Positions 4,178 through 32,300 are shown, counted from the stretch's first letter. The stretch: 64,000 nt of DNA from a virus (IMGVR_UViG_3300014205_000228:1734-65733), one strand, 5' to 3'. Notes: a model not told the origin generated them from the letters alone. Numbers and translations: made by a program.

Positions 4178-4863
4178 TGGTACAAATTAATGAGAGTGAC
4201 GGAGTTCATAAGCAATGGTACGAGGATGCTAAGAAAGTCACCTTGGAAGAATTGCCAGGGTTCTTGAATCGCCTCTTGAATGATTACGGTCACGACTACG
4301 GAACAATTTGTCACGCCTTGGCCGCAGGTTCGATAGCAGCAGCAGGGGGGATGAACAAATCAAAGCAGGGAGGAATAACCGGATTTCAGGCCGGGGCGGT
4401 AATGTGGGAATTTATACGCAACTGGAATTATTCTCACAATAAGTGCGGGTTGAGAATCGTTGACTTCGATAATTTCCTCTACCCGCAATATTCAGACCAG
4501 TACCAAAAGACAATTTCACCGAATATATGGGACGCTATTACAAAAGAGGCTCATCGTAATATTGAAGATGCTGACCAGAAATACGCAGAATACCTGATTG
4601 CCAAGGAACAGTACGACAAAGATATAACTGCCTTCATTGAAAAACATCCCGACTATCACGAGAGGAAAGAATATTATGACCACCTTGACTGCGGGACGGG
4701 CGACGAATGGAATACGTACTACGAAAAACGAGACAGTGGCTTTGATTTCGCACCAACCGAACCTTATGCGCCGATAACCAAAGGATCAAGAGTTTATTCC
4801 CATTGGGAAGACATCATAGCGGGGATGGTTCCCTTTGGTTACACGATAAAGGAGGTAAACTAA
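4177..4863 (+). CDS. phage hypothetical protein
   Basis: 228-aa ORF, TAATG overlaps on both sides. Confidence 0.8.
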   Translation: MVQINESDGVHKQWYEDAKKVTLEELPGFLNRLLNDYGHDYGTICHALAAGSIAAAGGMNKSKQGGITGFQAGAVMWEFIRNWNYSHNKCGLRIVDFDNFLYPQYSDQYQKTISPNIWDAITKEAHRNIEDADQKYAEYLIAKEQYDKDITAFIEKHPDYHERKEYYDHLDCGTGDEWNTYYEKRDSGFDFAPTEPYAPITKGSRVYSHWEDIIAGMVPFGYTIKEVN

Positions 4864-5801
4864 TGCCCGAACTTGACAATACAAAAGCATCTTGTTTTAG
4901 AACATGTAAGCGCAAATATTACTGGCAGCATATCAGAGGACTTCAGTCAAACTTTGGATCAAGTGCAATACGCTACGGAGTAACGTGGCACGGAATACTT
5001 GAGGGCTATTATAAATATATCAAAGAGAATGGTTGGGCTGATAAAGAGCTCGCAATCTCAGCTGCTCTTGAGCTTGGTAAGAAGAAGTGGGATGAGGAAA
5101 CAACAAAGAAAACTTTTCTTCCTGATTATCGTACCTTTGATGCTGCTTGTACAGCCCTTCTTCATTATCTTTCCTTTTATCAGAAAGATGAAGAATACAT
5201 TAAGATAATCAATACTGAAGCTAAGTTCAAATTAGAAATCAAACCTGATAATGATGACGAAGAGCAGATACTGTACTACATTATGGATAGGGGAGATCAT
5301 TCTGCACTGTACTTTACTGGTCGCCTTGATCTTCAAGTAGAAATGAACTTTGCTAATTGGATTCTTGACTTTAAGACCACAAGTCAGAATCTTTCAATGC
5401 AAGCATCGAGACTTAACAGGTCAGGGCAGTTAATTGGGTATTCCTATGCTGGAAAGCATGCTTTGGAGTTTCCTGCAGAAGGGTGTTTGGTTGGACTTGC
5501 TTATGTTAGTGCTTACAAAAATAAGAAGACCGGAGAGTATGGAGATGTAACTACGGACTTTGGAAGAATTCCTCAGATATATAATGACAAGGATTTAGTT
5601 GAGTGGAAAAAGTCTTTTCTTGATACTGCACTTGACATCACAACAAGCATTGACGCAAACAAATGGCCAGTTAATTTTGACTCGTGCTATCAATACGGAC
5701 CTTGTACGTACACTAAACTCTGTGATCAGGGTGGAAAACTTGATGACGTTATCACAGAAGGATTTCATGTAAGTCATTGGGATGTTTTAAAGGAAGAATA
5801 A
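4863..5801 (+). CDS. PD-(D/E)XK (RecB/Cas4-like) exonuclease
   Basis: CKRKYYW, GRLDLQ, ILDFKT, QLIGY, C-terminal CYQYGPCTYTKLC; start moved to ATG 4863 after GGAGG. Confidence 0.85.
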   Translation: MPELDNTKASCFRTCKRKYYWQHIRGLQSNFGSSAIRYGVTWHGILEGYYKYIKENGWADKELAISAALELGKKKWDEETTKKTFLPDYRTFDAACTALLHYLSFYQKDEEYIKIINTEAKFKLEIKPDNDDEEQILYYIMDRGDHSALYFTGRLDLQVEMNFANWILDFKTTSQNLSMQASRLNRSGQLIGYSYAGKHALEFPAEGCLVGLAYVSAYKNKKTGEYGDVTTDFGRIPQIYNDKDLVEWKKSFLDTALDITTSIDANKWPVNFDSCYQYGPCTYTKLCDQGGKLDDVITEGFHVSHWDVLKEE

Positions 5802-6031
5802 TGGCTAAACTTACCTTAACCAAAGCCCAAAGATGGGCAAGAGAACGTAACACTGCTAAAGGTCAGATCAGTGCAATGACCTCCCTTAGTAGGATGGTAG
5901 CAGATAAGGCTTCCATACTTTCTCACGAAAAGGAAGCTCTTCAGGCAATTATTGTGGTGCTTGGAAAGATCTTGGGAGATTGGAAGGATAACGAAAGTCT
6001 GTCAAAAACGAAGTATTTTAACTTGAAATAA
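5801..6031 (+). CDS. hypothetical basic protein
   Basis: TAATG coupling to nuclease; start moved to ATG 5801. Confidence 0.6.
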   Translation: MAKLTLTKAQRWARERNTAKGQISAMTSLSRMVADKASILSHEKEALQAIIVVLGKILGDWKDNESLSKTKYFNLK

Positions 6032-6033
6032 AT

Positions 6034-6158
6034 GAAAGTGGTGGTGTAGTGGTTAGCACGCGAAAATTTCCTTATTCGACTTTTCCCCGAAAGGTGGCGC
6101 AGAATAGGGTTACTTCAATTAGGATGACGAGACGCAGGTTCGATTCCTGTCCACTTTC
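6034..6158 (+). ncRNA. Y-RNA/tRNA chimera 1 (tRNA scaffold, Ro helix in place of anticodon arm)
   Basis: Acceptor (G)AAAGTGG/CCACTTT(C); D-arm GTGTAGTGGTTAGCAC; T-arm GCAGG-TTCGATT-CCTGT; insert CCCTTATTC-GACTTTTCC-CCGAAAGG-TGGCGCA-GAATAGGG-TTACTTC. Confidence 0.8.
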
Positions 6159-6168
6159 TTCAGTATTT

Positions 6169-6299
6169 AGATCGGTAGCTCAGTTGGTAGAGCAAAAGAC
6201 CAAAAAGACCTTAACCGCTTATTCTCCGAAAGGTAGCGAAGGTTATGGATACTTCAAACAAACTTTGGACCGTGGGTTCGAGTCCCACCCGATCTACCA
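6169..6299 (+). ncRNA. Y-RNA/tRNA chimera 2 with encoded CCA
   Basis: Acceptor AGATCGG/CCGATCT-A-CCA; D-arm GCTCAGTTGGTAGAGC; T-arm GTGGG-TTCGAGT-CCCAC; insert CCTTAACC-GCTTATTCT-CCGAAAGG-TAGCGAA-GGTTATGG-ATACTTC. Confidence 0.85.
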
Positions 6300-6304
6300 A
6301 AACT

Positions 6305-6369
6305 TGCTGATGGCGAAGATTACAGTTACTTCTTTGGCGAAAAATACTGTAATCGTTTATTCCTCAGCA
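6305..6369 (+). ncRNA. minimal Y-RNA-like RNA 3
   Basis: TGCTGA-TGGCGAA-GATTACAG-TTACTTC...CTGTAATC-GTTTATTCC-TCAGCA. Confidence 0.75.
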
Positions 6370-6385
6370 TTATTTAAGATTTAAA

Positions 6386-6476
6386 GCAGGTGGCGTAAAC
6401 TATGGATACTTCGGTTAAGACCAGCAATGGTTGCCAAGATCAAACTTGGCTACTCCTTAGTTGCCTGTTCCCCTGC
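6386..6476 (+). ncRNA. Y-RNA-like RNA 4
   Basis: GCAGG-TGGCGTA-AACTATGG-ATACTTC...CCTTAGTT-GCCTGTTCC-CCTGC. Confidence 0.75.
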
Positions 6477-6489
6477 CCTTCAGCATAAT

Positions 6490-6560
6490 AACGTAACTCT
6501 GCAGAGAGGCACTGTGTACGCTCAGACCGAGCAGAAAGTGCAAACCTCCGGAGTTACGTT
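6490..6560 (+). ncRNA. long hairpin RNA without the Ro motif
   Basis: AACGTAACTC/GAGTTACGTT 10-bp stem with nested GAG/CTC, GCAC/GTGC, GCTC/GAGC stems. Confidence 0.55.
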
Positions 6561-6566
6561 TTAAAG

Positions 6567-6643
6567 AAATGAGTGGCGAAAATTTCAGGTACTTCCTGTT
6601 AAGAAGGCCGAAAGGCTTCCTGAAATTGATTGTTCCCTCATTT
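6567..6643 (+). ncRNA. Y-RNA-like RNA 5
   Basis: AAATGAG-TGGCGAA-AATTTCAGG-TACTTC...CCTGAAATT-GATTGTTCC-CTCATTT. Confidence 0.75.
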
Positions 6644-6675: not shown

Positions 6676-7992
6676 ATGGCGAAGATCAACACCGCAGCAA
6701 AAGCAATTCCTGTTTACACTCACGAAGGAGCAAAAGCATCACTTCACGTAAATGCTTATCAAATGCTTCGAAGATCAGTGTGTTCCTGTATGCTTTGGGA
6801 AAGAGAGTTTTATGAGGATGGAGAAACCATTGCTTCAAGAATTGCTTCTTTGATTAAAGAAGTCGATCCTAACAAAGTTGCTGAACTGGCAGTAGAAGCA
6901 AGAGAGAAATTCAAACTTCGGCATGTTCCTCTTCTTCTTGCCAGAGAATTGGCTAGACAAGGATATAAAGAAACTGCTATGGTTCTTAATAGAGTAATAC
7001 AAAGACCTGATGAATTAACAGAGTTTTTGGCTATCTATTGGAAAGATGGTAGATGTCCTTTGTCTGCACAGATAAAGAAAGGATTAGCAAAAGCCTTTAC
7101 CAAATTTACTGCGTATAGTTTAGCTAAGTATAATCGAGACGATAAAATAAAACTTAAAGATGTATTGTTTCTTTCCCACGCAAAACCAGAATCAATTGGA
7201 CAAGCAGCGGTCTGGAAAGAATTAATTGCTGGTACTCTTGAATCTCCTGACACATGGGAAGTTCAGTTGTCTTCTGGTGCTGACAAGAAAGAGACATGGG
7301 AACGCCTTCTTTCGCAGGGTAAACTTGGTGGACTTGCGCTGCTTAGAAATCTTCGTAATATGAAGATGGCTGGTGTTACTACAAGTTTAATTATTGAGGC
7401 AATTAAAGATATTAACACAGAACGAATCCTTCCTTATCGCTTTATCGCAGCCGCACGATATGCTCTTGACCTCGAACCTTATCTTGAGACTGCAATGCTT
7501 AAGTGCATCAAAGACACAAAAAGACTTAGTGGACACACTGTTGTTCTGGTAGATGTGTCTGGTAGTATGGAGGATAAACTATCTTCAAAGTCAAATCTTA
7601 CCAGAATGGATGCTGCTTGCGGAGTAGCAATGGTTCTTAGAGAGTTATGCGAAAGAGCTACTATATTAACATTCTCACAATCTGTTGTGCAAGTTCCTTC
7701 AAGAAGAGGATTTGCTTTAAGAGATATTATTGTTGGTAGTCAAACACATGGATCTACTTATCTTGGTAAAGCAGTAAATGCTGTTTATTCTGAGATTAAA
7801 GATGTAGATAGGTTAATAGTATTTACTGACGAGCAGAGTCATGATCATGTTCCTGATCCTTCTGGAAATGCTTACATAATTAATGTCGCATCTGCTAGAA
7901 ATGGAGTTGGGTATGGCAAGTGGATTCATGTTGACGGATTCTCAGAATCAATAATCGACTGGATTAAAGAGTATGAAACTATTGAAAGGTAA
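6676..7992 (+). CDS. rsr: Ro60/Rsr RNA-binding protein (TROVE + vWA)
   Basis: TROVE motifs (THEG, LRHVPLLL, YSLAKY, TWEVQLS, ALLRNLRN, LPYRFIAA) and vWA MIDAS DVSGS plus IVFTDEQ. Confidence 0.95.
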   Translation: MAKINTAAKAIPVYTHEGAKASLHVNAYQMLRRSVCSCMLWEREFYEDGETIASRIASLIKEVDPNKVAELAVEAREKFKLRHVPLLLARELARQGYKETAMVLNRVIQRPDELTEFLAIYWKDGRCPLSAQIKKGLAKAFTKFTAYSLAKYNRDDKIKLKDVLFLSHAKPESIGQAAVWKELIAGTLESPDTWEVQLSSGADKKETWERLLSQGKLGGLALLRNLRNMKMAGVTTSLIIEAIKDINTERILPYRFIAAARYALDLEPYLETAMLKCIKDTKRLSGHTVVLVDVSGSMEDKLSSKSNLTRMDAACGVAMVLRELCERATILTFSQSVVQVPSRRGFALRDIIVGSQTHGSTYLGKAVNAVYSEIKDVDRLIVFTDEQSHDHVPDPSGNAYIINVASARNGVGYGKWIHVDGFSESIIDWIKEYETIER

Positions 7993-29389: not shown

Positions 29390-32300
29390 TTAATCCACAT
29401 CTTTAACAGATGGTATGCCAAAGAAATATTGAAACTTACTATCTTTATATATTTCTGGAATATCATTCTTAGATAATCTCACCGCCTTATAAACAGAAGC
29501 AGGAAGAATACCGGAACCTAACCATTTACTAAAGAATTCTACAACAGCATTGGTCGAGTCATCCTTACTCATTAATGTACTGTAAGCAGCTCCCATTGCA
29601 GGATTCATAGCAAGACCTACGTTAGTATCTGTTGCTCTAGTAAAAGGAACATGAAACACTTGTGCACCTAAATTAACATCAGCAAGTTGTTTACCAGCAC
29701 CTACTACAGCTGCTGCAGTAAGAATAGTTCGCATTAACTGCCCTGCATACGACTTTCCGTTAAGATCTTTAGGAGCTAACAAAGCATCTTTAATTAAACC
29801 AACCTGAAAATTTCTTGCACCAGTTTCTATGTCACCTTTTAACTGTCTCATCAACTCTTTAGTAGCATCTGCAATAGCCCCTCCACCCTTTACAGCAGTA
29901 ATCATTCTTTGCTCAAATATCTTATACGGAGTACCCTGAAACAGGAATAAAAGTCTTGTTTTAGGATCTCTTAACCAACTAGGATTATGTACACCACTAA
30001 GAAAGTTGGCTTTAAGAATAGTATCATACACAAGATAACTTGCTTGCGCAGGAGTCATTCCTTGCTTAGCAGCCATTGAAACAGCAGACGCAAATGAAAA
30101 TGCCCTATCTGCTTTTTCAACATTATTTACTATAAAGTTAGCTTTACTGTTCCACCACATTAATCCCTCTTCAACAATATTTCTAGCTTGCGTTTGTGGT
30201 AACATATCACTAATAGTAAGATATAGATTCTGCGCTCCGATATGTGCTTTAGCCAAATCTGCTCTCATGTTAGCAGGAGCCTTCTTAAGAAGTTCTGCCA
30301 TTTTGAGATCTTTCCATATCGGAACAGCTTTAGGAAGATTTTCAAAAGCATTACCAAACCCACTAAGTGCAATATTTGCCATAACCTTCATCCCGTGCTT
30401 AAAGCCGACAGAAGGACTCAGTGAAATAAGTCTAGCTGCTTCAAACATCTGTGCAGTCATTGCAAGCTTGTTTAAACTTCCAAACTGATCAACAGGACTA
30501 AAACCTTTGGCAACACTCTCAAGGTAATCTACAGCACCTAAATTACCAGCTGCTCTTGCCTGTGCTAAAAATGGTCTCCACTCTTTCCAGAAAGATGCCA
30601 TTTCAATTCTCATATTAGCATCTGGAATATACCTATCCATAGCATAGTGAATATCTGGCATCATAGGGCGAGTATTAAATCCTCTCCTATGAAACGCTGA
30701 CATATCAATACCATGCCCGACAGTTGAGTCTAGATCGTTAGTAATACTACGTAACAACTTAAAATCAGTATCAGGATGTGCAACATAATGCATGAAGTCT
30801 TTACTAGAAATAACATCCATTCCAGACGCTACTGCTCTTTCACTGTATTGCCCGAGCATATTCTTAATCTTTGCTGCAGCAAGCATTTCATTGTGATTAA
30901 GGAATTGCTTAACCCAAGGATCTGCAGCATCCATACCTGAATTATTAGCAGCAAAGAATATTCTTGCAGATGGAAATTGTCTAGCAACTTCTCTGTCTAG
31001 TCCATCTAGAATCGTATTATATTCTTTAAGTGTATCATCATAACTGCTAAGTCTTTTTTGAACATTGTCTCTTTTTGCTGAAAAATCTGCAATCATTGCC
31101 AAATCTTCTTCATCAAGTTTTGATCCTCTTCTTATTTCGCGACTAAGTCTATCAATTGTACCTCCCTCTGAATTCTTATACTTACCAGAAAGAATCTTAT
31201 CATACAAAGATAATTGATTATTAAGATCACTAACTTCACGAAGAGGAACCTGAAATCGCTCGACAACTGGTTTATATATTTCCCTAATTTCTTTACTCGA
31301 AGATGTTATACCTTTAAGCATATTAGAAACTGCAATTTTGGATGCTTCCGTAATACCTAAAGCAGTTGTAGTCTTTGCTGCAATAATAGGACTTGCACTA
31401 GAAAAAGGTTTAAAGAGAAATTGTGCAACAGCTTGAGGTGTCATTATCGTAGACAGAAAACGACTAAATCCCTTCTTCACTTGAAGATCCTCAAAAGGAC
31501 TAGGCATCCTTCCATGAAGATCTGAGAAATTTATTGATTTTTGATAAGCAGTAATTCCATCCTTTGCTTCGTTTAATATAGTAGAATGATAACCCTTTTC
31601 CATCATACTCTTCATTAAGACTTCTTCTGTCACCTTAGGATTAAGTGCCTTCATAGCCTGCTTAGCAATCATATCAGGAATCACGCCAGCTTCTGATGTC
31701 TCAACTCCCGGTCCACCCAGTAACACACTACCAGCAATAATAGGAACAGTTGACCATAACCCAAGTTTACCGTACTTAGACATTATAGCGGCAGAGTCTG
31801 CACCTTTCTTAATATCGTTTGCGATGGCTTTCTTTAAGCCAGCAGTATCACCTTGTGTCAACTTAAGTACTTCTTTAGTTGTACTGTCAAGTTCAGTCTG
31901 CACCATCTTGCGATAACTATCAGTATTAGTCATCGCCTCAAGTTTAGACACAACCTCACCTGATAGTTTGCCATTACCATTAAGCATATAATGACCCAAC
32001 GCAGCACGATATCTCTCACTATCTCCTGCATTAATTGCGCCTGTTAACTCATCAGTAAGTTTAGTAATAAATTCAGGTGTTTCTACTTTGTTACCTTTGA
32101 ATTCAAATAAAGATCTGTCTTTAGGGGGAAGAATACCTTTGTTACGTATTGCAGTCTCTAAAGGGGTCATATATAAAGAGTGTGTAGCATCGTCTAAAAT
32201 ACCCTGTGTCTTCGCTGTGTTAAGTTCTTGCACTCTTCCAAGCAACTCTTTCTTAGACATGGTTTCATAGGCAAGTGGATTTTCATAGTCATACACATGC

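What the first reader, a model, noticed from the sequence alone, without database searches (positions are those of the whole stretch)
6169..6299. True-topology tRNA whose anticodon arm is replaced by a GAAA-capped Ro-binding helix, ending in encoded CCA
Seen: perfect 7-bp acceptor AGATCGG/CCGATCT, A73, CCA, canonical D-arm and T-arm. In place of the anticodon arm, the 3'-type Ro strand comes first, then CC-GAAA-GG, then the 5'-type strand. Established: YrlA RNAs have their ends in the Ro stem, with a tRNA-like domain whose acceptor is loop-closed. Inference: this RNA is the circular permutation of YrlA. It keeps free acceptor ends, so RNase P could mature it and a synthetase, EF-Tu or uncharged-tRNA sensors could engage it while Ro holds the other end. 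It could be a Ro-tethered tRNA decoy with no anticodon for host anticodon nucleases to cut, or an evolutionary intermediate between tRNA and YrlA.
Basis: partly seen in the sequence, partly recalled or inferred. Interest (0 to 1): 0.9.

Follow-up and report, generated by a model that had tools for sequence, protein, structure and literature searches.

The report
tRNA-shaped Y RNA beside phage Ro60
A 66-kb phage encodes, just upstream of its Ro60 gene, a small RNA built like a complete tRNA whose anticodon loop is replaced by the hairpin that Y RNAs use to dock Ro60. It is the known bacterial YrlA RNA with its chain ends moved to the acceptor stem, and I found no description of this layout in the papers I could search.

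Summary
Window 6169-6299 has a perfect 7-bp acceptor, canonical D and T arms, A73 and CCA. Rfam's tRNA model scores it at 51.6 bits with a 64-nt insert. A 4-bp anticodon-stem remnant carries a bulged helix capped by GAAA, and this helix bears the Y-RNA motifs shared by the three ordinary Y-like RNAs downstream.

A twin element lies at 6035-6158. The Ro60 (TROVE) gene starts at 6676.

I found 13 such elements in 11 loci, including the cultured phage crAss001. Every acceptor pair covaries, and 97.8% of cells pair against 38-48% in slid controls. Standard YrlAs from related loci align best to these elements only after rotation at their acceptor loop.

The "circular permutation of YrlA" reading is therefore supported. 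The decoy and aminoacylation ideas remain untested.

- The encoded CCA is not conserved: the closest relative has ACA.
- Only 1 of 80 bacterial and archaeal MAG loci carried the design.
- This scan has noted the same layout before on other phage DNA.
- I found no description of it in the papers I could search.

Verdict: a real RNA and a new topological variant of a known family.

The parts
6169..6299 (+). el2, the finding: a tRNA-topology Y RNA of 131 nt including the encoded CCA
   Evidence: Rfam tRNA 51.6 bits. Model R1 scores it at 119.1 bits. Fold. Covariation.
6169..6175 (+). Acceptor 5' strand, AGATCGG. It pairs with 6289-6295, and U6168 may add an eighth pair with A6296.
   Evidence: Sequence. 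All 7 acceptor pairs covary across 13 homologues with 100% pairing. The -1:73 pairing is.
6178..6193 (+). D arm, GCTC-AGTTGGTA-GAGC
   Evidence: Rfam tRNA alignment. D-stem pairs are 100% paired.
6195..6198 (+). Anticodon-stem remnant, 5' strand AAAG. It pairs with CUUU at 6263-6266.
   Evidence: Rfam tRNA alignment shows 4 pairs. The same stem is 5 bp in L072 and L090.
6209..6216 (+). Lower Ro helix, 3'-type strand CCTTAACC. It pairs with GGTTATGG at 6241-6248, with one U-U mismatch.
   Evidence: Six of the 8 pairs show changes on both sides.
6217..6227 (+). 3'-type strand of the Ro site, G-CTTAT-TCTCC. C6224 and U6225 pair with G6236 and A6235. C6226 and C6227 pair with G6233 and G6232.
   Evidence: Conserved CG-NTT-NTTCC motif in all copies. 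The 59:77 pair covaries between C-G and U-A.
6228..6231 (+). GAAA tetraloop that caps the Ro helix where ordinary Y RNAs have their 5' and 3' ends
   Evidence: Sequence. Homologues use GAAA, GCAA, GCGA, UUCG, GUAA, AGCA or GAAG.
6232..6248 (+). 5'-type strand, GG-U(bulge)-AGCGAAG-GTTATGG. It carries a one-off variant of the GNCGAAN0-1G Ro-contact motif.
   Evidence: The motif is defined in Chen et al. 2014 (PMC4201824). Sequence.
6249..6255 (+). Conserved ATACTTC junction motif, found in all five Y-type modules of the window
   Evidence: The TACTTC core is invariant and the base before it is A or T in alignment A1.
6272..6288 (+). T arm, GTGGG-TTCGAGT-CCCAC
6289..6299 (+). Acceptor 3' strand CCGATCT, then A73, then the encoded CCA
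   Evidence: CCA is replaced by ACA in L072 and in a co-occurring strain.
6035..6158 (+). el1, a twin tRNA-topology Y RNA. Acceptor AAAGTGG/CCACTTT, G-1:C73, no encoded CCA, GAAA cap. It lies 10 nt upstream of el2.
   Evidence: R1 scores it at 120.1 bits. Sequence. In the fold of the pair, cis acceptor pairing gives -64.9 kcal/mol against -55.8 when trans pairing is forced.
6305..6369 (+). Y-like module 3, with ordinary topology and no tRNA domain
   Evidence: Motifs in the sequence. Fold.
6386..6476 (+). Y-like module 4, with ordinary topology
6567..6643 (+). Y-like module 5, with ordinary topology
6676..7992 (+). rsr gene for the phage Ro60 protein (438 aa; TROVE plus Ro60 vWA domains), the presumed protein partner
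   Evidence: Pfam TROVE at 2.2e-18 and vWA_Ro60 at 2.6e-08. PHROG 850, RNA-binding protein, at 2.3e-49.

Best explanation
Window 6169-6299 encodes a Y RNA of the YrlA kind written in tRNA order. It is one of two tandem copies that open a five-RNA array in front of the phage Ro60 (rsr) gene.

Shown here:
- It has an open, covarying 7-8-bp acceptor helix.
- It has canonical D and T arms with all the elbow contacts.
- It keeps a short anticodon stem. This stem continues into the bulged Ro-type helix, which is closed by a tetraloop instead of by the RNA's ends.
- It is homologous by rotation to the standard YrlAs of related phages.
- It is the only tRNA-like Y RNA in its own Ro60 clade.

Inferred:
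- The array is transcribed with rsr.
- Host RNase P cuts at or one base before 6169, and 3' trimming leaves or restores CCA, so the RNA matures as a tRNA does.
- Phage Ro60 binds the capped bulged helix at the anticodon end. This displays an L-shaped tRNA body with a free 5'-phosphate and CCA terminus to a tRNA-recognising partner that is not yet known.

The geometry is that of YrlA, with Ro60 at the anticodon end and the tRNA elbow at the other. What differs is which helix carries the chain ends.
For: Fold and statistics:
- Rfam tRNA scores 51.6 bits.
- On 13 elements from 11 loci, 97.8% of cells pair against 38-48% in slid controls, 21 of 28 pairs change on both sides, and 0 of 500 shuffles reach any of the five measures. 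The hand-checked 10-sequence alignment gives the same picture.
- Covariance model R1 separates the class cleanly. True elements among the close relatives score at least 96 bits. Spans between tandem standard YrlAs score at most 82 bits.

Homology to YrlA:
- The rotation test favours rotation at the acceptor loop in 20 of 20 comparisons.
- The same junction and Ro motifs occur in both layouts.

Selection:
- el2 is 94.7% identical in nucleotides to its L072 orthologue, while rsr is 81.5% identical. All 7 differences lie at unpaired positions.
- The Ro60 clade of window, L072, L001, L002 and L107 (support 98) carries only tRNA-order elements as its tRNA-like Y RNAs.

Breadth:
- The layout also occurs next to the TROVE gene of crAss001, cr106_1 and PhiCrAssBcn1. 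Their Ro60 proteins are about 37-39% identical to the window's.

Precedent:
- M. smegmatis YrlA has a 7-bp acceptor. In vivo it is cut by RNase P and receives CCA (Chen et al. 2014, PMC4201824).

The fold of the el1-el2 pair prefers cis acceptors, at -64.9 against -55.8 kcal/mol.
Against: - There is no direct evidence of the transcript, its ends, Ro60 binding or RNase P cleavage. Only assembled contigs could be laid on the window.
- The single RNA-library contig (5933-6181, 9 differences) comes from a relative. It may be DNA carry-over, and it covers el1 rather than el2.
- The single-sequence folding z-score is only -1.47.
- CCA is not conserved even in the nearest relative.
- L001 carries an el1/el2 fusion whose acceptor pairs at only 5 of 7 positions. 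Either the acceptor helix is dispensable there or that contig is a collapsed assembly.
- The Ro motif in el2 (AGCGAAG) departs by one base from the published GNCGAAN0-1G.
- No sigma-70-type promoter was found at the window's array.
Confidence: 0.75

Rival explanations
1. The tRNA shape is mainly a cis-acting processing signal. RNase P and 3' tRNA-processing enzymes use it as punctuation to cut the Y-RNA and rsr precursor into units and to give the first RNAs stable ends. It has no separate role for the free acceptor or CCA end.
For: - The elements stand first in the arrays. In L002 and L107 they follow directly after a TTGACA-17-TATCAT-type promoter.
- The next Y module begins 5-15 nt after position 73.
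- CCA is not conserved.
Against: - Standard YrlA arrays are processed without open acceptors.
- The full set of tRNA elbow and tertiary residues is kept, and RNase P does not need all of them.
- This reading overlaps with the best explanation and does not exclude it.
Confidence: 0.1
2. It is a by-product of recombination within tandem Y-RNA arrays and has no function of its own. Any stretch from one acceptor loop to the next in a tandem YrlA array is automatically tRNA-ordered.
For: - Spans between tandem standard YrlAs score up to 82 bits with the tRNA-order model.
- L001 looks like a deletion fusion.
- The layout needs at least 3-4 changes on the Ro60 tree.
Against: - All 11 distinct elements and all three distinct crAss-like elements have perfect 7 of 7 long-range acceptors with different sequences. 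They also have tetraloop caps rather than spacers.
- Solitary copies exist with no tandem partner, as in L002, L107 and L036.
- el2 is conserved more strongly than the neighbouring coding DNA, and substitutions occur only at unpaired sites.
Confidence: 0.07
3. The real RNA is an ordinary YrlA that spans both elements. It would run from the 5'-type strand of el1, through the el1 T arm, the spacer and the el2 D arm, to the 3'-type strand of el2.
For: - Rfam YrlA gives a weak hit at 6131-6193, which is the el1 T arm plus the el2 D arm (25.1 bits).
- The two Ro half-sites can partly cross-pair, judged by eye.
Against: - The hit is far below the gathering score of 69. It is the "dimeric tRNA" artefact that Chen et al. 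2014 filtered out.
- The trans acceptor pairs at only 5 of 7 positions, against 7 of 7 in cis.
- Forcing trans pairing costs about 9 kcal/mol.
- Solitary homologues cannot form such a structure.
Confidence: 0.04
4. It is a genuine decoding tRNA gene, Lys-like, interrupted by an intron or insertion that is removed to give a normal tRNA.
For: - The D-arm and T-arm halves are canonical enough that ordinary tRNAs from the same metagenomes map to both sides. Several of these have a CTTTTAA anticodon loop, that is UUU (table 5c).
- Rfam calls it a tRNA.
Against: - The 64-nt insert carries conserved, covarying Ro-type motifs.
- Removing the hairpin leaves about 24 unpaired nucleotides rather than a 7-nt anticodon loop.
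- The insert is far too short to be a group I intron, and I saw no bulge-helix-bulge motif.
- The same insert occurs in 13 elements, all beside rsr.
Confidence: 0.02

Closest known systems
YrlA (Y RNA-like A; Rfam RF02553; Chen et al. 2014, PMC4201824; structure in Wang et al. 2018, 10.1101/312249)
   Same: - It is encoded beside rsr on the same strand.
- It has a Ro-type bulged helix with a GNCGAA-like motif.
- It has a tRNA-like domain with conserved D and T arms and elbow contacts.
- Ro60 sits at the end that corresponds to the anticodon.
- Sequence homology appears after rotation.
   Different: - The chain ends lie in the acceptor stem rather than in the Ro stem.
- The order is D arm then T arm, as in a tRNA.
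- The acceptor is open, with 7-8 bp, and ends in CCA here.
- The Ro helix is capped by a tetraloop.
- It is not detected by the Rfam YrlA model.
[quoted passage not shown] 2014)
   Same: It ends up with an open 7-bp acceptor bearing CCA on a Ro-bound, tRNA-like Y RNA.
   Different: In M. smegmatis the open acceptor is made by cutting a closed loop, which gives a two-piece RNA with four ends. Here the gene order fixes it, and the RNA is one piece with two ends.
D. radiodurans Yrn1
   Same: It is a Y RNA whose D-like and T-like elements run in tRNA order (PMC4201824).
   Different: In Yrn1 the Ro stem occupies the acceptor position and an anticodon-like arm is kept. Here the Ro helix occupies the anticodon position and the acceptor is free.
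tmRNA tRNA-like domain
   Same: It has an open acceptor with CCA and a T arm, and a large insert takes the place of the anticodon arm.
   Different: There is no tag reading frame and no G3:U70 pair. The D arm is complete. ARAGORN finds no tmRNA here. The insert is a Ro-binding helix.
Dimeric-tRNA origin model for YrlA (Sim and Wolin 2018, as cited in 10.1101/312249)
   Same: el1 and el2 are two tRNA-shaped units in tandem. The el1 T arm, the 10-nt spacer and the el2 D arm stand in the arrangement the model proposes as the ancestor of YrlA.
   Different: Each unit already carries a complete Ro site. The Ro60 tree does not show that this state is ancestral.

Membership tests
YrlA (Rfam RF02553) | Encoded within 4 kb of rsr on the same strand | tested here: met
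   The element ends 377 nt upstream of the rsr start at 6676, on the same strand.
YrlA (Rfam RF02553) | Reaches the family's Rfam gathering score of 69 bits | tested here: not met
   There is only a 25.1-bit partial hit at 6131-6193, spanning the el1 T arm and the el2 D arm.
YrlA (Rfam RF02553) | GNCGAAN0-1G motif in the Ro-binding helix | tested here: inconclusive
   el2 reads AGCGAAG and el1 reads GGCGCAG, one departure each. The A in el2 covaries with its pairing partner, U-A in place of C-G. The motif is taken from PMC4201824.
YrlA (Rfam RF02553) | tRNA-like domain with conserved D and T arms and tertiary contacts | tested here: met
   Rfam tRNA scores 51.6 bits. U8, A14, G18G19, TTC, A58 and G15:C48 are present.
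YrlA (Rfam RF02553) | T arm lies 5' of the D arm, the acceptor is closed by a loop, and the RNA ends lie in the Ro stem | tested here: not met
   The order is D arm then T arm, the acceptor is open, and the Ro stem is capped by GAAA.
YrlA (Rfam RF02553) | Sequence homology to accepted YrlA-type RNAs | tested here: met
   Closed-acceptor YrlAs next to related rsr genes align best to these elements after rotation at the acceptor loop, in 20 of 20 comparisons.
YrlA (Rfam RF02553) | Bound by Rsr/Ro60 | not testable with these tools
   This needs an immunoprecipitation or a gel-shift assay.
tRNA (Rfam RF00005) | Cloverleaf with a 7-bp acceptor, D arm and T arm, scoring above the gathering score | tested here: met
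   51.6 bits against a gathering score of 29.
tRNA (Rfam RF00005) | 5-bp anticodon stem with a 7-nt loop that presents an anticodon | tested here: not met
   There is a 4-bp stem and a 64-nt insert. ARAGORN makes no call.
tRNA (Rfam RF00005) | Aminoacylation and use in decoding | not testable with these tools
   There is no anticodon. el2 also lacks G3:U70, G-1:C73 and a long variable arm, as read from the sequence.
tmRNA | Tag reading frame, G3:U70 pair and detection by ARAGORN | tested here: not met
   ARAGORN reports only tRNA-Pro in the window. Position 3:70 is A-U.
Intron-containing or permuted tRNA gene | Removing the insert restores a normal anticodon loop | tested here: not met
   About 24 unpaired nucleotides would remain. 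I saw no bulge-helix-bulge motif by eye, and the insert is conserved as a Ro helix.

The most novel reading that the evidence does not exclude
The free, tRNA-like acceptor/CCA end is functional. The Ro60-bound RNA would be engaged by host tRNA-specific factors and act as a tethered decoy or sensor against tRNA-targeting defences. Such defences include anticodon nucleases of the PrrC, RloC, PARIS or retron type. The RNA offers them a tRNA body with no anticodon loop to cut. The G-1:C73 sister elements, such as el1, might even be histidylated.
Probability: 0.12. Interest if true: 0.85.

Novelty: new variant of a known kind. Interest (0 to 1): 0.62.

Why it matters
What the tRNA-like half of bacterial and phage Y RNAs does is still an open question. 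A natural version that keeps a true acceptor end, sometimes with an encoded CCA, bears on it in three ways.

1. The tRNA body, and not merely a tRNA-like elbow, is what selection preserves.
2. It gives a one-piece, gene-encoded counterpart of the RNase-P-cut M. smegmatis YrlA.
3. The tandem pair in this window is a living example of the arrangement proposed for the origin of YrlA from dimeric tRNAs.

The same layout sits unannotated beside the early TROVE gene of crAss001, a cultivable phage for which infection RNA-seq has been published. End mapping, a search for non-templated CCA, Ro60 pull-downs and deletions are therefore feasible now.

There is also a practical point. These genes can be called as tRNAs by Rfam-based annotation. 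A YrlA screen that discards tandem tRNA genes could also miss them.

Tried and rejected
- **ARAGORN** made no call on either element.
- **Rfam YrlA** gave only a sub-threshold hit across the two elements.
- **Exact-pattern scan** of viral contigs for TTCYCCGAAAGGTRGCG returned 7 stretches. Six were chance matches inside coding DNA and one was the L002 contig I already held.
- **Read laying** used only Logan contigs, so no RNA ends, strand or expression level could be read. The RNA-library contig at 5933-6181 shows presence at best. The apparent "joints" at 6194/6270 are ordinary tRNAs of other organisms mapping to the D and T halves, not splicing.
- **Sigma-70 promoter and terminator scan** found nothing above the shuffled expectation at the array.
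- **Two reviews** (PMC10870794 and PMC6047535) are not held, so I could not check whether they mention this layout.
- **The NTase-like ORF at 2162-2944** has no Pfam hit and only weak PHROG hits. I did not use it.
- **Second-tier hits of model R1** (22-82 bits) proved to be spans between tandem standard YrlAs or ordinary tRNAs. L051 was a false positive of my heuristic.
- **Six further cultured-phage Ro60 loci** were searched with R1. Apart from crAss001, the top hits I inspected in CcrPW, Xanthomonas MET23-P3 and Rhizobium TM39 were not tRNA-order elements. Brevundimonas Gurke reached at most 27.6 bits and RsoM2USA had no hit.
- **A preprint on Ro60-like proteins countering a defence system**, mentioned in an earlier scan note, did not turn up in my search.

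Full report
**Setting.** The window is almost all of a 65,733-bp IMG/VR virus record that CheckV rates as complete. Its DNA occurs in landfill and groundwater metagenomes. Genes around the finding all lie on the + strand:
- a PD-(D/E)XK nuclease (4803-5801);
- an 84-aa ORF (5777-6031);
- a 644-nt non-coding stretch;
- a 438-aa TROVE plus Ro60-vWA protein (6676-7992);
- then a CxxCxxCC protein, AAA_24, DHH, ParB-methylase and UDG-PolA genes.

**Observation.** There is a perfect 7-bp acceptor, U8-A9, the D arm GCTC/AGTTGGTA/GAGC, the T arm GTGGG/TTCGAGT/CCCAC, A73 and CCA.
- Rfam's tRNA model scores it at 51.6 bits (E = 3.6e-08) with a 64-nt insert in the anticodon loop. ARAGORN makes no call.
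- A 4-bp anticodon stem survives (AAAG with CUUU). From it emerges an 8-bp helix, then an asymmetric internal loop, then a short stem with a bulged U, closed by GAAA.
- The strand after the cap, U(G/A)GCG(A/C/U)AG ... (A/U)UACUUC, is the strand that begins the three ordinary Y-like RNAs at 6305-6369, 6386-6476 and 6567-6643. The strand before the cap, CG-NUU-NUUCC, is the strand that ends them.
- A twin element lies at 6035-6158, with a different acceptor (AAAGTGG/CCACTTT), G-1:C73 and no CCA.

**Homologues.** I fetched rsr loci from three collections: 22 from IMG/VR, 75 from metagenomes and 80 from prokaryotic genomes.
- A heuristic found 233 YrlA-type T arms. It required a Ro 5' motif, a T arm, an acceptor either closed or long-range, and a D arm.
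- About 150 of these have the published closed-acceptor layout. Twelve, of which 11 are distinct, have an open 7 of 7 acceptor about 100 nt upstream followed by a D arm.
- The 11 are window el1 and el2, L072 el1 and el2, L002, L009, L015, L036, L090, L097 and L107.
- Their caps are GAAA, GCAA, GCGA or UUCG.
- Model R1, built from ten of them, scores true elements at 96 bits or more. Spans between tandem standard YrlAs score at most 82 bits.
- R1 then found the same layout downstream of the TROVE gene in crAss-like phages: cr106_1, PhiCrAssBcn1 and crAss001 itself. Each of the last two has two copies, and none is annotated.

**Covariation.** On the 13-sequence alignment, 97.8% of cells form standard pairs, against 38-48% when partners are slid.
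- All seven acceptor pairs change on both sides and are 100% paired.
- The lower Ro helix and the cap stem also covary. For example, the A in UAGCG always faces a U in UUCUCC, where UGGCG faces UUCCCC.
- The alignment was fitted to the model. The hand-checked MAFFT alignment of ten sequences gives the same result.
- Between the window and L072, el2 is 94.7% identical while rsr is 81.5% identical at the nucleotide level. All seven differences fall at unpaired positions.

**Relation to YrlA.** Related loci such as L003, L004, L005, L008 and L009 carry textbook YrlAs. These run 5' Ro strand, variable region, T arm, a 6-8-bp acceptor closed by GNRA or UUCG, D arm, 3' Ro strand. They share the same junction motifs.
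- Rotating five of them at the acceptor loop gives the best alignment to four tRNA-order elements in all 20 comparisons.
- Wang et al. 2018 already describe YrlA as a circularly permuted tRNA that lacks a free CCA. They also cite a model in which YrlA arose from a dimeric tRNA transcript.
- Chen et al. [quoted passage not shown] A filter of that kind could remove elements like these.
- The weak Rfam YrlA hit at 6131-6193 is that artefact.

**Which fold?** In the window, the el1 T arm and the el2 D arm could in principle form a standard YrlA across the 10-nt spacer.
- That acceptor pairs at only 5 of 7 positions.
- Forcing it costs about 9 kcal/mol.
- Solitary homologues such as L002 and L107, each directly behind a promoter-like TTGACA-17-TATCAT, cannot form it.

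**Distribution.**
- On a FastTree of 128 Ro60 proteins, window, L072, L001, L002 and L107 form a clade with support 98. In that clade the tRNA-order elements are the only Y RNAs with a tRNA domain.
- L036, L009 and L015 lie elsewhere on the tree, so the layout needs at least 3-4 changes. L090 and L097 were left out because their Ro60 genes are incomplete.
- Only 1 of the 80 prokaryotic-genome loci has the layout. That locus is L107, a 21.8-kb contig of a Clostridia MAG that groups with the phage proteins.
- An earlier scan note (e1-5753165) says the design is common beside Ro60 genes in many bacteria. My sample is Acidobacteriota-heavy, and it does not bear this out.
- Two earlier notes (e1-5762250 and e1-5753165) describe the same design on other phage DNA, so this scan has seen it before.

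**Ends.**
- Position -1 pairs with position 73 in all 11 elements of the first set: G:C six times and U:A five times. It also pairs in two of the three distinct crAss-like copies. The acceptor may therefore be 8 bp, as in tRNA-His, which could shift the RNase P cut by one base.
- Five of the 11 elements encode CCA. The window's genuine tRNA-Pro encodes CCA.
- The crAss elements do not encode CCA, and neither does a neighbouring genuine crAss tRNA.
- The nearest relative of el2, and a strain that co-occurs with the window phage, read ACA. The encoded CCA is therefore not under strict constraint.

**Mechanism.** Three things are shown: the fold, its homology to YrlA, and its conservation. The rest is inferred: maturation by RNase P and 3' trimming with CCA addition, and binding of phage Ro60 to the capped bulged helix.
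- The M. smegmatis precedent supports the maturation steps.
- The result would be an RNP that displays a tRNA body with a free acceptor end.
- The partner of that body is unknown, as it is for every YrlA.
- Hughes et al. 2020 suggested that the YrlA tRNA-like domain might competitively inhibit an anticodon nuclease.
- In crAss001 the TROVE gene is expressed within the first 10 minutes of infection.
- For Thermus phage phiLo, a complex of Ro60, Y RNA and host PNPase has been reconstituted.

**Limits.** I have no transcript ends, no binding data and no raw reads. The Ro60 tree is unrooted and was built with FastTree only. Two key reviews could not be read. My statement that I found no description of this layout therefore applies only to the library I could search.

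Noticed in passing
window 6034-6158; also L072, L002, L090, L097, L107: Six tRNA-order elements, including el1, have G at -1 opposite C73. To my knowledge this is the bacterial tRNA-His identity pair. The other five elements of the first set have U-1:A73.
   Followed up: partly
L189 4124-4270 and 4379-4520 (crAss001 MH675552.1, minus strand, 96450-96596 and 96200-96341): There are two unannotated tRNA-order Y RNAs downstream of the early TROVE gene gp96 of the cultured phage crAss001. The same occurs in PhiCrAssBcn1 (L188), and cr106_1 has one copy (L187).
   Followed up: partly
L001 2697-2824: This relative (72% Ro60 identity) has a single element that joins the 5' half of an el1-type unit to the 3' half of an el2-type unit. 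Its acceptor pairs at only 5 of 7 positions, yet ACCA is kept. It may be a deletion between the two units or a collapsed assembly.
   Followed up: no
L072 1882-2014: The el1 orthologue carries a 6-nt tandem duplication of the Ro motif (GGCGAA GGCGAA). This shifts the partner strand of the lower helix.
   Followed up: no
window 6484-6566: A long, nearly perfect hairpin lies between Y-like modules 4 and 5. It appeared as spurious mir-515 hits on both strands. Its outer stem (AACGTAACTC ... GGAGTTACGTT) is conserved in L072 and L030 while the centre differs. Its role is unknown.
   Followed up: no
L009 4476-4584: A 109-nt tRNA-like gene lies downstream of rsr (Rfam tRNA 38.7 bits). It has a 6-nt anticodon-like loop containing CAA and an insert of about 40 nt in the variable region. 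The insert has no Ro motif.
   Followed up: no
L009 2694-2768: A genuine tRNA-Lys(UUU) gene sits inside the Y-RNA array of this relative. Ordinary tRNAs, several with a UUU anticodon loop, from the window's own metagenomes map to both halves of el2.
   Followed up: no
L187 1-146 (cr106_1 record 29657-29960): The record annotates a tmRNA about 2.3 kb upstream of the TROVE gene, and model R1 gives a weak hit inside it (21.4 bits). I did not check whether it is a true tmRNA.
   Followed up: no
window 6297: A second strain in the same landfill and groundwater samples reads A instead of C here, changing ACCA to AACA. It also has an extra A after 6298, which matches L072.
   Followed up: partly
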